Positions 18,517 through 45,662 of a stretch of DNA of 64,000 nt are shown here, piece by piece. The stretch's first letter is position 1. Every line of letters begins with the position of its first letter. The notes beneath the pieces are model-generated. The model was not told the DNA's origin and did not search any database. It saw only the letters and a program-made list of their open reading frames with translations. This DNA comes from Octopus sinensis (Eukaryota). Made by a program: the position numbers and the translations under genes. The DNA lies in assembly GCF_006345805.1 (NCBI RefSeq), contig NC_043006.1, positions 48,422,001 to 48,486,000 on the forward strand. Direction: 5' to 3'.

Positions 18517-18556
<40 letters not shown>

Positions 18557-18584
18557 GTGAAAAGGAACACAAAGGCACGAGTTG

Positions 18585-20705
18585 ATATATATGAAAAAAC
18601 AAGTCAAAAATAGAAAATGCTAAAATAATTTATAGTGAACATTTCAGTACCGGTTTCGGTCATTTTGAGACCTTTCAACTGTAACGATTAAATAATTAAA
18701 TTTAGAAAAATTAGAAGAAAAAACCTAGTCATAGGATACCTAGAGATCAGTCTGTATCGTAAGGTTCTAGAAAGATATGGCAGCCCTTTCTCCATCTACA
18801 TAGAAAAACAACTGGAAGAGATATCTAGATGACTGTTTAATCCTTTGCATAAAAATATAGAAAAACTCATAGAATTCCAGAAAATTTTAACGGACTGGAC
18901 GTAAACATCCAATTCACGATGGAATATAGCCAACAACAACTCCCCTTCCTCGATATCCTCATTAAGAAAGCTAATAATATAATAGAAACAGACAATACTA
19001 TAAGCCTACAGACTCAAGCAATATTCCATTCAATTCATGCCACCCCAGACACCAGGATGAATATCCCCTTCAATCTAGCAAAAAGGATATGCACTATAGT
19101 CTCTAACGCAAACACCAGAGACACACGACTACAAGAACTAAAAGATACCCTAATCACAGGAACTATCCACCTTCCTTATTGACAAGTGCATTCAACGTGC
19201 CCTTCAACTTAACATCAAGGAACTGAGACATCCCAAATCAAAGAAAAACTTACAACCAAAGGCTTACCATACATCTCCACACACAACCCTCTCAATAACG
19301 AAGCCTTCGACACCATCCTCCACAACATACCCCTCCTAAAAAAAGACCACAGAATGAACACAATCCTCCAAACACACACGATCATAAAAAGCAAAAGACA
19401 GCCTAGATCCATGAAAAGTCTCCTTACACAAGCCCGAATTCACTCCTCAACACAGAAGCCGACAGTAAAAAAATGTGGAAGACCCAATTGCGGGATATGC
19501 GACTATCTAATTGAGGGATCAGAGTTCTCCTTCAAGCAGGGACAACGGTTTACAGTGAAAAGCAACTTCACATGTGCTTCGGAGACCTAATATACTCACT
19601 AACCTGCTCCGGGTGTCAAGAGCAGTACATAGAAAGGCAAACAAAAAATGGTTTGCGTAAACGAATGGCCCTGCACAGATCCCAGATAAAATTCCCCAAA
19701 ACAGAAAATAGCTTTTAGCCAACACATAGATACTTGCGCCAACAAAAAAACACCAAACTTCAGAATTTCCCCCTCTACCAATTTAGGGACGATACAACCT
19801 CGAGACAACGAATAAGTAAAGAAAATCTCTTTATTACAAAATACAAGCCACTTCTAAACGGGTCTACGACAAACAATTAATATACCTCAACTTTAGAATA
19901 AAAGAAAAAAATATATATACACACAAATATTACACTCCATAGAATCCATTACTAATCAGCCCCTCATAGCTATACTTACACCCATTCATATTCCCCCTTC
20001 TCTGTTTTTTTTCTCTTCTTCTTCCTCTTCTTCTTCATCATCATCATTATCATCATCATCGTCGTCATCATCATCACCACCGTCATCACCACCATCTTCT
20101 CCTTCTCCTCCTTCTTCTTCATCATCATCATTATCATCATCATCGTCGTCATAATCATCACACCACCACCATCATCGTCATCTTCTCCTTCTCCTTCTCC
20201 TTCTCCTTCTCCTTCTTCTTCTTCTTCTTCTACTTCTCCACCCCCTACCCCTTAACTTTGTCACTAATGTTTTTTAGTATAACACCTACGCTAATTCTAT
20301 AAACCTACGCTAATTCTATAAACAAGCCTGTCAATATAAATATTCTCCTGAATTGAACTGAGACTGCCAGCCGCCACTGACCATTCAAAATACGACCATC
20401 AGGGCACTCCCAGATTCTCCCATCCCCCTTTCCCCACCAGCCTTCTTCCTCTACTACCCTTCCAAGAACTCACAACGACCTCCGACACACAAGTGCAAAC
20501 AAGGGAGTCAGAGAAAGGCAGAATGCCACTTAAATCTGAACACTACTATAGAAATATTCTTTTAAAAAAACTTTTCTTCTAATTTTTCTAAATTTAATTA
20601 TTTAATCGTTACAGTTGAAAAGGTCTCAAAATGACCGAAACCGGTACTGAAATGTTCACTATAAAATTATTTTAGCATTTTCTATTTTTGACTTGTTTTA
20701 TATAT
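18585..20705 (+). mobile_element. Penelope-like retroelement, 5'-truncated, with inverted pseudo-LTR
   Basis: Frameshifted ORF at about 18725-19880: NWKRYLDDC, LPFLDIL, HATPDTRMNIPFNLAKRICTIVS, CGRPNCGIC, LIYSLTCSGC..YI (GIY-YIG). About 130 bp at 18590-18722 is the reverse complement of 20572-20700. Confidence 0.9.
20612..20649 (+). ncRNA. Minimal type-I hammerhead ribozyme, U3:A8 covariant core
   Basis: cag-TTGAAAA-GGTC-tcaaaat-GACC-GAAA-CCGG-TA-ctg; inverted copy at 18645-18681 is one A shorter. Confidence 0.75.
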
Positions 20706-20714
20706 ATATATACA

Positions 20715-20857
20715 TACATATATATGACAGACTTCTTTCAGTTTCCGTCTGCCAAATCCACTCACAAGGCATTGGTCGGCCCAAGATGTCACGCAGTGGG
20801 ACTGAACCCGGAACCATGTGGTTGGTTAGCAAGCTACTTACCACATTCCTGCGCCCA
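20715..20857 (-). mobile_element. SINE family A, 5' half
   Basis: TTCAGTTTCCGTCTGCCAAATCC..CTACTTACCAC. Confidence 0.85.
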
Positions 20858-20901
20858 TAGTGAAAAAAAAAGCTGAATAAAAACGAAAGACAATACAAAA
20901 T

Positions 20902-21295
20902 GTAGGAGTGGCTGTGTGGTAAGTAGCTTGCTAACCAACCACATGGATCCGGGTTCAGTCCCACTGCGTGGCATCTTGGGCAAGTGTCTTCTGCTATAGT
21001 CTCGGGCCGACCAATGCCTTGTGAGTGGATTTGGTAGACGGAAACTGAAAGAAGCCTGTCGTATATATGTATATATATGTGTGTGTTTGTGTGTCTGTGT
21101 GTTTGTCCCCCTAGCATTGTTTGGCAACCGATGCTGGTGTGTTTACGTCCCCGTCACTTAGCGGCTCGGCAAAAGAGACCGATAGAATAAGTACTGGGCT
21201 TACAAAGAATAAGTCCCGGGTCGATTTGCTCGACTAAAGGCGGTGCTCCAGCATGGCCGCAGTCAAACAAGTAAAAGAGTAAAGAGTAAAAGAGT
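20902..21295 (+). mobile_element. SINE family A, full length
   Basis: Head, body and tail all present. Confidence 0.9.
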
Positions 21296-30674: not shown

Positions 30675-30900
30675 TCATTCCGACCACGGTCGAACATTCC
30701 TGACAACATTCCTCCGCAATTCAAGATTCTCTATCGCTTTTGACATCTCCTCACTGAGATTTGTATCATCTGAGAGTTGATTGATGAATGTTCGAGAAGG
30801 TATTCCTCTTCTGCGTCTCCTCTGAGTTGATTCCCACAACAGTTGATTGTGTCTATTTTCCTGCTCACTTCTCCAGTAATATCCTGCAAATCGTTGTGGG
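30675..30900 (-). mobile_element. RTE/RTE-X LINE ORF C-terminal fragment
   Basis: RFAGYYWRSEQE..QLLWESTQRRRRRGIPSRTFINQLSDDT..AIENLELRR resembles RLRFAGHCWR..LLWEP..G.R.RGRP..TYIDQL..D. Confidence 0.75.
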
Positions 30901-30911
30901 ATTGAACACGC

Positions 30912-31359
30912 GCTAAATGTACCATGTACCAAATATTCCACGTACAAATTGTACCACGTGACAAATGTACCATGTAGCAAACGTACCACGCGGCAAATGT
31001 ACCATGCGGTAAATGTACCAGGGGCCAAATGTAACACGTAACAAACGGACCACGTGCTAAATGTACCATGTGCCAAATGTATCACGTGCCAAATGTACCA
31101 AGCACCAAAGGTACCACGTGCTGAATGTAACACATGCTAAATGCACCACGTACCAAATGTAACACGTACCAAATGTGACACGTACCAAAGGTACCACGTG
31201 CCAAATGTACCACGTACAAAAGGTACCACGTGCTGAATGCAACACATGCTAAATGCACCACGTGCTAAATGCGCCACGTACCAAATGTAACACGAACCAA
31301 ACGTACCACGTACTAAATGTATCACGTGCCAAACGTATCACGTGCCGAATATACCGCGC
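30912..31359. repeat. Minisatellite, 28 x 16 bp, consensus RCCAAATGTACCACGT
   Basis: Counted 28 units in exact 16-bp phase with no indels. Confidence 0.9.
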
Positions 31360-31990
31360 TGTAGAAGTGAAGAAACAGAGAACCATATGATTTAGAAGCT
31401 AAATTCTTAAACACGGCCATTCCTATTTACACGAATGATGCAAAAATAAAACAAAATACTAGTGACGGGGTTTGGGTTTTCTATTCACAAGTATTTGTTT
31501 AATTCGACCGTTTTCTACAAAGTTTCATTTGTAGGAATTTGGTGAACTGGAGGCAGCAGTAGAAAACTCGTGCCCTATATATCACGCAACAGAATCGAAC
31601 AAACGCACAACCAGATTATTGAGAAGCTAAAATGTTATCCACACGGCTATCTCTATTTACACGAAAGGAAGTACTGCATTAGATGTAGTTAGGTGTTTAA
31701 CAATCTCGCCTAACTCCCTCACCGTCATGCATATATTTATTTCTTTTGATTAGGAACAATGGTACTGCTTCTACGTGCATACATTAACACACAAATACGT
31801 TCACAGGCTAGCATCCTACATTTCTTATCAATATATTGATTTTCGAGCTAACGTGGGAGCATCTATGCGGTTGTTCAACCTGCGTGCTAAAAATATCAGT
31901 CAAATCTCTCTCGGCATGCAGATGATTGGTGTTAAAAATGTGAAGGATGTATTTGTTGATGTACGCTAGAATTTCTATTTAGATTACGTT

Positions 31991-33671: not shown

Positions 33672-33856
33672 CAGTTCTATATTTAAAAGACGAGGAATTA
33701 TGTACATTATTTACATTTCACGTATATTTGCCCTCACTTTGTTTGTTGTTAAACACAACGTTTCGGCTGATATACTCTCCAGCTTTCATCAGGTATCTTG
33801 GGGAAATTTCGAACCTGGCTTCTCACCCCTAAGGTATTTTTCGATGTTGTTATGAA

Positions 33857-36249: not shown

Positions 36250-37484
36250 TCTTAAAATTTCAAGCAAATTTATATTAATATGGGGTAGGATCGCCTTTGG
36301 CAGTAATTACAACTTGAATTCTACGAGGTATGGACTCGTACAAAGTTTGAATTCTTTCCAAAGGAATTTTTTATCCATTCTTCAGCTGAAACAATCTCCA
36401 GTTCTTGATGGTGGAGGTTGTCGACTCCTTACTTGATTTTCTAAAATGCACCATAAATGTTTAATGATTTTGTGATCTGGGGTCTGTGGTGGTCAGATAA
36501 GATGTTCAACTTCACTACAAGGTTTCTCGTGCCATTCAGTAACAACTTTAGCTGTTTGAATTGGTGCATTATCTTCCTGAAAGGTTGCGTTTCCCTCCGG
36601 AAACAGTCCGCAAACATAGGATGATTTTGATCAAATAAAATGCTTAAATAGTCTTGATTATTAATTCTGCCATGAAGGGAAACCATCGGGCCGGCGGATT
36701 TCCAAGATATAGATCCCCAAATTATCACAGATGTTTAACAGCTGGAAGAAGGCAGTCTAGATCAAATGCTTCTTATGGCTCTCTCCACACGTATACTCGG
36801 CTGGTGGTCGAAAATAAGGTAAAGGATGACTCGTCCGAGAAAATAACATTCTTCCACTGCTCTAGGGACCAATTTTGTAGGTTTTTACTCCACTCTAAAC
36901 GCTTTGCAACATTCGTTTTTGAAAGTAGTGATTTTCTGATTGCAGCCATCCTGTGAAATCCGGTTTTGTGCAGCTTCTGGTGAACAGTTTTTGTGGAAAG
37001 TGGGTTCTTGAGGTGGTCATTAAGCTCTGTAGTAATTTTGGGTAGCCGTACTTTTGTGATCCTTTCTAACAATTCGCGTAAGTGTCCGACGGTCCCTATC
37101 TGAAATTTTTGATTTTCTTCCGGAGTTTTCTTTCGACGAGAAGGTTTTTCTCTCTATCTCTCTATCTCAAAGGCTGTCATTACTTTCGAGACAGTTCTTG
37201 ATACACCAAACATTTCGGCTGTTTTCATTAGGCAAGCACCTGCCATACGAGCACCAACAATTTGACCTCCTTGAAAGTCCGATAGATCTGTCATTTTAAT
37301 GAATTTTAATTACCTGTTTTCTGATGATATCTGAAAAGAAACAACAATTTTAGAAAATTATATTAAGCAACACTAATAATAAATCAAAAAACATAAAAAT
37401 AAACAAACTATTGGCGGTTTTATAGATATTACAAAATTATGATACTATGATGGTAGGTGTTTCCATTATTTTGTCCAACCCCTG
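36250..37484 (-). mobile_element. Tc1-family transposon, near full length, degraded
   Basis: TIR CAGGGGTTGGACAAAATAATGGAAACACC at 37484. Peptides MTDLSDFQGGQIVGARMAG, AAIRKSLLSKTNVAKRLEW..WKNVIFSDES and MIIWGSISWKSAGP, ending GDPTPY*. Frameshifted; the left TIR is lost at the SINE array. Confidence 0.9.
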
Positions 37485-37633: not shown

Positions 37634-37764
37634 ATTTATTATATAGAAGGAGCTTCTACAGGACTAGAACTGTTTCATTCAAGAGAAATCTTCAGGAAGT
37701 TCCTGAAGATTTCTCTTGAATGAAACAGTTCTAGTCCTGTAGAAGCTCCTTCTATATAATAAAT
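37634..37764. repeat. Perfect 65-bp-arm palindrome (1-nt spacer) with a hammerhead-like core; probable inverted PLE terminus
   Basis: ATTTATT..CTTCAGGAA-G-TTCCTGAAG..AATAAAT. The right arm has CTGAAGA-t-TTC-tctt-GAA-t-GAAA. Embedded in (TA)n. Confidence 0.85.
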
Positions 37765-42281: not shown

Positions 42282-45630
<3,349 letters not shown>

Positions 45631-45631
45631 C

Positions 45632-45662
<31 letters not shown>

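What the first reader, a model, noticed from the sequence alone, without database searches (positions are those of the whole stretch)
20612..20649. Hammerhead with compensatory C3:G8 to U3:A8 swap, shared by two distinct PLE families
The core reads UUGAAAA instead of CUGANGA. Positions 3 and 8 form a tertiary Watson-Crick pair in the active hammerhead fold, so the double change preserves it. The same core, CCGG loop and GUA site recur in the divergent PLE at 42928-42966 with different stems I and II, which argues for selection. Standard CUGANGA searches would miss these.
Basis: partly seen in the sequence, partly recalled or inferred. Interest (0 to 1): 0.7.

Follow-up and report, generated by a model that had tools for sequence, protein, structure and literature searches.

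The report
Penelope hammerhead with U-A core pair
The end repeat of a very abundant Penelope-type jumping gene carries a tiny hammerhead RNA motif, predicted to cut itself when two copies pair, whose U-A instead of C-G core pair is real but already published; the extra is that sister families in the same genome have flipped the pair again to A-U, which likely means the pairing itself is kept by selection.

Summary
Observation confirmed; the variant is already in print. 20612-20649 (+) is a minimal type I hammerhead motif (core UUGAAAA, palindromic ACCGGU helix III, GUA site) in the pseudo-LTR of a decayed Neptune/Nematis-type Penelope-like element (PLE). The exact 38-mer has 1,647 genome copies; U3:A8 cores with this tail number 10,401 (control 124). 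U3-A8 was reported in nature (Perreault 2011) and in Schistosoma PLE pLTRs (Cervera and de la Peña 2014, ~1,300 hits). The two window families are 56% identical in protein and share U3:A8 by descent: one origin, not two. The window's second copy has lost one U of stem I. Selection is better shown by other data: across 16 hand-picked family representatives stem I covaries, N7 varies, N17 is A/C/U but rarely G, and related families carry A3:U8 (1,207 vs 7), which my searches did not find in print. Against a strict need for cutting: a young subfamily with U3·G8 and a slipped stem I (86 identical copies) spread, and A17 is predicted to pair with U3, a trapped fold. Cleavage is untested. The scan noted U3-A8, A3-U8 and mismatched families before in other genomes.

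The parts
20612..20649 (+). Minimal type I hammerhead motif of family F1: stem I 20612-14/20647-49, core U3(20615)-A9(20621) with A8 at 20620, stem II 20622-25/20633-36, GAAA 20637-40, palindrome ACCGGU 20640-45, A17 20646; predicted cut 20646^20647
   Evidence: 1,647 exact genome copies
18722..20700 (+). 5'-truncated, frameshifted PLE of family F1: end of RT, thumb, CGRPNCGIC linker, GIY-YIG endonuclease (to about 19877), 3' UTR/pLTR, ending at a (TA)n run
   Evidence: 90% identical to a full-length unit in L177
18545..18721 (-). Inverted 5'-truncated pLTR copy with the optional ~35-nt tail; its hammerhead (18681-18645) has lost one A of the core
42928..42966 (-). Hammerhead motif of family F2a (U3=42960, A17=42935; 2-bp stem II); this copy lacks one U of the stem I 5' strand
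42786..45594 (-). 5'-truncated, frameshifted PLE of family F2a (end of ORF1, RT, linker CGRSNCATC, GIY-YIG, pLTR); a 53-nt inverted tail piece follows at 45586-45638

Best explanation
This is the minimal hammerhead motif in the pseudo-LTR of a Neptune/Nematis-type Penelope-like retrotransposon, with a U3:A8 core pair that is likely ancestral to the whole clade in this genome, and it is predicted to cut its RNA slowly after GUA (20646^20647) only when two copies pair. Shown by sequence and calls: the motif, its place 777 nt behind the endonuclease and, in a full-length tandem, 123 nt before the ORF1 ATG; its family-wide conservation; covariation of stem I and of 3:8. Inferred from published PLE hammerheads: helix III has only A15.1-U16.1 and one C-G pair around a 2-nt loop, so two motifs (the two pLTRs of a tandem transcript, or two transcripts) would pair through ACCGGU/ACCGGU into a double hammerhead; U3:A8 would stand in for C3:G8. 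Predicted by folding: in F1 and F2a A17 can pair with U3 and extend stem I, the analogue of the C3:G17 trap, so the naked RNA is likely mostly latched and would need help, most likely the element's own protein as shown for the anole PLE. Likely role: occasional trimming (or cutting and rejoining) of read-through tandem transcripts; not a step that every insertion needs, since the copies keep the uncut site. This window copy is a dead insertion whose two motifs face opposite ways, so it could only pair in trans.
For: Counts with tail GAAACCGGTA: U3:A8 6,256 (control 38), C3:G8 18 (15), U3-G8 188 (19), C3-A8 106 (25; scattered single copies of the U3:A8 families). U3:A8 with N17 = C/G/U: 4,145 (86); G17 in 3 of the 100 rows listed, each a single row. 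A3:U8: 1,207 (7), 223-336 nt behind a related endonuclease on the same strand in 7 of 8 loci tested that reach the endonuclease end (L127: 197 nt from a shorter match). 16 family representatives: the invariant columns are the hammerhead core U4 G5 A6 A9 and GAAACCGGU; first three stem I pairs 47 of 48 cells paired vs shuffled mean 21.3; 88.4% paired vs 50.4% shuffled and 31-47% for slid partners, 3:8 = UA 13, AU 3. Tree of the thumb-endonuclease region with mollusc outgroups: all families form one clade (100/100), U3:A8 families F3/F4 and F1 branch outside F2 + A3:U8; holding all U3 rows together is rejected at p-AU 0.04. Predicted dimer MFE of site 1 is the double-hammerhead scaffold, -27.1 kcal/mol vs -9.8 per monomer. 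Literature: U3-A8 active in vitro and natural (PMC3088659); PLE min-HHRs cut weakly as dimers (PMC4209133); anole PLE hammerhead cuts only with protein, depends on the 3:8 pair, and is not needed for insertion in vitro (PMC11167929).
Against: No cleavage data here. The U3:A17 paired form is predicted 2.2-2.3 kcal/mol below the open form in F1 and 1.4-1.7 in F2a. Subfamily F2b, about 95% identical to the window's second element, has U3·G8 plus one A lost at the cut site and still has 86 identical copies with inverted arms 98.7-99.7% alike; 10 of 100 F2 rows and 4 of 6 F2c loci seen also lack that A. Stem II is weak (1-2 bp in seven representatives) or not closed next to the core in five; the 10.1-11.1 pair holds in 11 of 16. 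Breaks at the predicted cut site are rare: 17 hits, 15 loci, 12 of them truncation-like, 4 compatible with the cut, against 1,647 intact copies. The 16 representatives were picked by eye as well-formed copies and are related, so the shuffle figures are not probabilities. The branch that places F1 with F2 and the A3:U8 families fell to 81/79 and the next to 88/89 when three unlabelled rows were dropped.
Confidence: 0.72

Rival explanations
1. The fold is kept but cutting is negligible or dispensable: the motif serves as a structural signal (RNA dimerisation through ACCGGU, binding of the RT-EN protein) or is a relic that young subfamilies are losing.
For: F2b spread with U3·G8 and a slipped stem I; the predicted U3:A17 latch; copies run through the uncut site and cut-site breaks are rare; catalytic mutants of the anole PLE insert normally in vitro and no reads ended at its cut site (PMC11167929).
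Against: Avoidance of G17 while A, C and U all occur, a free N7, and a double transversion U3:A8 to A3:U8 are constraints of the catalytic fold and are hard to explain by dimerisation alone; U3·G8 is still a wobble pair and occurs in a published PLE motif (Saccoglossus).
Confidence: 0.22
2. U3:A8 arose independently in the two window families (convergent compensatory swap from C3:G8).
For: Different stems I and II and 3' UTR lengths (777 vs 187 nt); C3:G8 minimal hammerheads are abundant elsewhere in the genome (21,898 vs 1,460 for a looser pattern, most listed rows CUGANGA).
Against: F1 and F2 proteins are 56% identical and sit in one 100/100 clade whose outermost branches are also U3:A8; two changes explain all states; they share the ACCGGU tail.
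Confidence: 0.04
3. Chance look-alike in AT-rich DNA.
For: Short motif, AT-rich core, below Rfam's gathering score; a CR1-like LINE family matched one of my loose patterns by chance.
Against: 10,401 vs 124 matches, fixed place in the pLTR across families, stem covariation.
Confidence: 0.02

Closest known systems
U3-A8 minimal hammerheads in pLTRs of Schistosoma mansoni Cercyon PLEs (Cervera and de la Peña 2014, PMC4209133; read: parts 1-2 of 4 of the main text, supplement parts 1-2 of 3)
   Same: Type I, in the pLTR of an EN+ PLE, U3-A8 core (UUGAUAA and UUGAAAA rows in Fig. S3), short palindromic helix III, many dispersed single copies, pairs in opposite strands; a U3-G8 core is listed too (Saccoglossus).
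   Different: Other host and, by the Zn-finger linker, a Neptune/Nematis-type element; 6-nt palindrome ACCGGU instead of a 4-nt one; A17 in the window families (the two S. mansoni U3-A8 rows have G17 and U17); short stem II without the extra base after A9; no A3-U8 row among the 56 of Fig. S3.
Natural U3-A8 core covariants (Perreault et al. 2011, PMC3088659; read: section 8, term searches, supplement term search with no hit)
   Same: C3-G8 covaries to U3-A8 in several natural hammerheads; stated as active in vitro; weak stems II and III common.
   Different: Not PLE-specific; no A3-U8 in the section read; no rate for U3-A8 in the text seen.
Hammerhead of the anole Poseidon element PAc (Frangieh et al. 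2024, PMC11167929; read: passages)
   Same: pLTR hammerhead, short tail beyond it from two RT start sites, copies made from uncut RNA.
   Different: C3-G8 core; ORF starts inside stem II there, 123-208 nt after the cut here; activity was tested there, not here.
G17 hammerheads trapped by C3:G17 (Kalweit and Hammann 2013, PMC3884650; read: parts 1-2 of 5 and passages)
   Same: Position 17 complementary to position 3 is proposed to cap helix I and lower rate and extent.
   Different: Here the predicted trap is U3:A17 and it is the natural family sequence; 'A17' does not occur in that paper's main text.

Membership tests
Hammerhead ribozyme (type I, minimal PLE form) | Core U4 G5 A6 N7, A9, G12 A13 A14, A15.1-U16.1, H17 | tested here: met
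   N17 A/C/U, G in 3 of 100 rows
Hammerhead ribozyme (type I, minimal PLE form) | Watson-Crick pair 3:8 (canonical letters C3, G8) | tested here: met
   Pair met as U:A (A:U in sister families), canonical letters not; variant accepted in PMC3088659 and PMC4209133
Hammerhead ribozyme (type I, minimal PLE form) | Helices I and II around the core, palindromic helix III/loop 3 | tested here: met
   Site 1: 3 bp, 4 bp, ACCGGU; stem II weak in several sister families
Hammerhead ribozyme (type I, minimal PLE form) | Site-specific self-cleavage after N17 | not testable with these tools
   Genomic break test weak; no raw-read RNA run listed
Rfam hammerhead families (clan CL00010) | Score above the family's gathering threshold | tested here: not met
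   HH9 19.7 bits vs 52; not filed as an Rfam family member
C-terminal EN+ Penelope-like element | RT followed by GIY-YIG endonuclease | tested here: met
   PF01541 at 25.4 bits over cut-off 22.6 in F1 copy L061; weak RVT_1 in L050; homologues carry PF00078 and PF01541
C-terminal EN+ Penelope-like element | pLTR with hammerhead, tandem or inverted truncated copies, 30-40 bp tail | tested here: met
   features as described in PMC8557442
C-terminal EN+ Penelope-like element | Single ORF | tested here: not met
   ORF1 and RT-EN overlap in the -1 frame over a UUUUUUA heptamer in 7 of 7 F2 copies covering the site and in one F1 copy; PMC8557442 Fig. 1 legend allows an ORF1 split by a frameshift without my seeing for which clade
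Neptune/Nematis clades | CX2-5CxxC linker before the endonuclease; (TA)n targets | tested here: met
   CGRPNCGIC and CGRSNCATC, (TA)n flanks; definition from PMC8557442
Neptune/Nematis clades | Placement among named reference elements in an RT tree | not tested
   No named reference sequences were on hand; outgroups were unnamed or oyster proteins

The most novel reading that the evidence does not exclude
One Penelope clade has walked the hammerhead 3:8 pair through U:A, A:U and U·G; the A3:U8 families are a natural core not yet in print, and the U3:A8/A17 families are self-latched ribozymes in which A17 pairs with U3 until the element's protein opens them, which makes cutting a protein-gated, optional step of Penelope replication.
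Probability: 0.25. Interest if true: 0.55.

Novelty: new member of a known kind. Interest (0 to 1): 0.3.

Why it matters
The swap itself is known, so the finding as written mainly extends it to another host and PLE clade. Its use is as a natural mutant series: one clade offers U3:A8 with A17, C17 or U17, A3:U8, and U3·G8 with a slipped stem I, all amplified to tens or thousands of copies. Assaying them side by side, with and without the element's protein, would bear directly on the open question of whether PLE hammerheads must cut for the element to spread. It also shows that CUGANGA-only and Rfam-threshold searches miss more than 11,000 motifs in this one genome.

Tried and rejected
Whole-window Rfam scan: swamped by microsatellite matches, no hammerhead among the 150 rows shown. 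The repeat finder: swamped by simple repeats. Expression and cut ends: no RNA holder listed, only contigs of runs guessed to be RNA; four laid, two span the stretch in one piece, no pile of ends and no joint at the AG before U3; uninformative either way. The idea that TTACAG before the core is a splice acceptor, as in Drosophila virilis Penelope, got no support and F2 lacks it. Cut-site scar test (lead from e1-8643110 and e1-9584820): 17 hits only, 4 of 12 truncation-like loci compatible with the cut; inconclusive, and only one tail variant of F1 was searched. The frequent CUGAUUA match is the reverse strand of a CR1-like LINE ORF, not a hammerhead. An old repeat with CUGA(G/A)GA and the ACCGGU tail exists (L140-L143, L165) but showed no PLE ORF in the flanks fetched. 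F3 loci have no endonuclease match within 1,500 nt of the motif (about 1,970 nt in L147) and F5/F6 showed no ORF link, so their assignment is looser. L118 was dropped from the second tree because its ORF lies on the strand opposite its motif; L040, L159, L127, L022, L146, L014, L067 were dropped as short, odd or redundant; P0002, P0003, P0005 were left out of the clade test. Papers not held: Lünse et al. 2017, Przybilski and Hammann 2007, Nelson and Uhlenbeck 2008, Martick and Scott 2006; nothing of them was seen beyond citations. Lünse 2017 in particular may already list A3-U8 or mollusc PLE variants. Searches for print: 'hammerhead'+'U3-A8' gave 1 paper; 'A3-U8', 'A3U8', 'U3A8' gave 0 occurrences with 'hammerhead'; searches gave nothing relevant.

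Full report
Observation. The window reads at 20612-20649 (+): CAG, UUGAAAA, GGUC-loop-GACC, GAAA, CCGG, UA, CUG. This is the layout of a type I hammerhead with U at 3 and A at 8. It lies 777 nt behind the end of a GIY-YIG endonuclease remnant of a 5'-truncated PLE (18722 to about 20700), which is preceded by an inverted pLTR copy (18545-18721) whose core has lost one A. The second site (42966-42928, minus strand) lies 187 nt behind the endonuclease of a second PLE. In that copy stem I is one base out of register; the family form has one more U and pairs 7 bp. A local Rfam scan names Hammerhead_HH9 as best hit, below its gathering score.

Not chance. In the 2.72-Gb genome the pattern TTGANAAN{8,25}GAAACCGGTA has 6,256 matches against 38 for its reversed control, and with N17 = C, G or U another 4,145 against 86. 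The exact 38-mer of the finding has 1,647 copies, the second family 829 under a pattern that covers its subfamilies. With the GAAACCGGTA tail C3:G8 is at background (18 vs 15), C3-A8 gives 106 scattered single mutants and U3-G8 188. Ordinary C3:G8 minimal hammerheads with a shorter palindrome are abundant in other repeats (21,898 vs 1,460 for a looser pattern), three of them in this window. Each search lists only its first 100 rows; proportions quoted from listings were counted by eye.

The element. [quoted passage not shown] Full-length tandems (L176, period about 3,977 nt; L177; L179) put the predicted cut 123 nt (F1) or 208 nt (F2) before the ORF1 ATG. The two families are 68% alike in DNA over 827 nt and 56% in protein over 337 aa.

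One origin, then further change. In trees of the thumb-endonuclease region with public homologues as outgroup, all these families form one clade (100/100); U3:A8 families F3/F4 branch first, then F1, then F2 with the A3:U8 families (UFboot 100 and 95; 81/79 and 88/89 with three unlabelled rows dropped). Holding all U3 rows together is rejected at p-AU 0.04, and two changes explain the three states. So F1 and F2 share U3:A8 by descent, and the informative event is the later double change to A3:U8: 1,207 matches against 7, tied to a related endonuclease on the same strand. The rows dropped are listed under Tried and rejected.

Evidence that the fold is under selection. In 16 representatives, one well-formed copy per family picked by eye, the invariant columns are U4 G5 A6, A9 and GAAACCGGU; N7 is A, U or C; N17 is A, C or U, with G in 3 of 100 listed rows. 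The first three pairs of stem I hold in 47 of 48 cells with four pair types; over seven named pairs 88.4% of cells pair, against 50.4% shuffled and 31-47% with slid partners, and 3:8 is UA 13 times and AU 3 times. Relatedness and my choice of copies inflate these contrasts. Stem II is the weak part: 4 bp in F1, 1-2 bp in F2 and A1, not closed next to the core in five representatives.

Evidence against a strict need to cut. Subfamily F2b, about 95% identical to the window's second element, has G8 and has lost one A at the cut site, which leaves a U without partner at the base of stem I; it has 86 identical copies and inverted arms 98.7-99.7% alike, and its predicted fold is not the hammerhead. 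An intermediate with U3:A8 and the same loss makes up 10 of 100 rows, and 4 of 6 F2c loci seen share the loss. Copies run through the uncut site at both ends; breaks at the cut are rare and not clearly enriched (4 of 12 truncation-like loci among 17 hits). Folding predicts that in F1 and F2a A17 pairs with U3 in both monomer and dimer, 1.4-2.3 kcal/mol below the open form, like the C3:G17 trap proposed in PMC3884650. Secondary-structure energies omit the 3:8 tertiary pair, so this is a prediction only.

Mechanism. Shown: anatomy, copy numbers, covariation, position. Inferred: two copies pair through ACCGGU into a double hammerhead (predicted dimer -27.1 vs monomer -9.8 kcal/mol; weak dimer cleavage of PLE motifs in PMC4209133; review PMC6765202, passages); U3:A8 keeps the active-site pair (PMC3088659); cutting is slow and likely helped by the element's protein, and insertion can go on from uncut RNA (PMC11167929). 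I put 0.72 on slow or protein-helped dimer cleavage, 0.22 on a kept fold with negligible cutting.

What is known. Cervera and de la Peña 2014 state 'U3-A8 instead of C3-G8' for Schistosoma PLE hammerheads, about 1,300 hits; their Fig. S3 lists two U3-A8 rows and one U3-G8 row among 56, and no A3-U8 row or cephalopod. Perreault 2011 reported natural U3-A8 earlier. My searches found no paper with A3-U8 or A3U8, but Lünse et al. 2017, the most relevant survey, was not held, and figures and some supplements could not be seen. The scan's own unchecked notes describe U3-A8, A3-U8, U-G and mismatched families in other genomes; I found the U3-A8 paper and the U3-G8 subfamily before opening them, and the A3:U8 families after.

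Verdict. Real, correctly read as a variant PLE hammerhead, but a new member of a published kind. Interest 0.3; the natural series of core states and the predicted U3:A17 latch are the parts worth a bench test.

Noticed in passing
window 45420-45411 (-); L049, L050, L052, L176, L179, L177: ORF1 and the RT-EN ORF overlap in the -1 frame over a UUUUUUA heptamer (codons H-F-L in ORF1) in 7 of 7 F2 copies covering the site and in one F1 copy; a hairpin of -9.1 kcal/mol is predicted behind it in F2, none in F1. Likely a programmed -1 frameshift in an EN+ PLE; two literature hits only, neither read for this point beyond one figure legend.
   Followed up: partly
L126-L135, L145, L162-L164: PLE families with an A3:U8 hammerhead core and the same ACCGGU helix III, 1,207 matches vs 7.
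   Followed up: yes
L049, L050, L067, L176, L181: Young subfamily F2b with U3·G8 and one A lost at the cut site, 86 identical copies.
   Followed up: yes
window 14676 (-), 27943 (-), 34114 (+), and a worn copy near 33790 (-): Canonical C3:G8 minimal hammerheads (6-bp stem II, GAAACGUU tail) of an abundant short repeat; no PLE ORF seen in 20 sampled loci of such motifs.
   Followed up: partly
L176 minus strand, positions 669 and 759 on that strand: An F2b tandem begins right behind an F1 pLTR piece, so hammerheads of two families with the same ACCGGU palindrome lie 90 nt apart in the same direction; a possible setting for mixed dimers.
   Followed up: no
L148-L152: A U3:A8 family with strong stems (6-bp stem I, 4-bp GC-rich stem II, C17) and no match to the F1/F2 proteins in the DNA fetched; perhaps a separate lineage and the best candidate for clear activity.
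   Followed up: partly
L140-L143, L165, L041, L043: Old repeat with a C3:G8 core, a long stem II region and the ACCGGU tail; no ORF found nearby.
   Followed up: partly
window 37660-37738: Perfect 39-bp inverted repeat without a loop, picked up as a sub-threshold miRNA match.
   Followed up: no
window 30859-31406: Tandem array with a 16-nt period.
   Followed up: no
window 36773-37153 (-): ORF remnant that resembles a Tc1/mariner transposase (recalled resemblance, no family scan).
   Followed up: no
window 20727-21200 and many other places: Copies of an abundant SINE-like repeat in both directions directly behind the PLE's (TA)n run.
   Followed up: no
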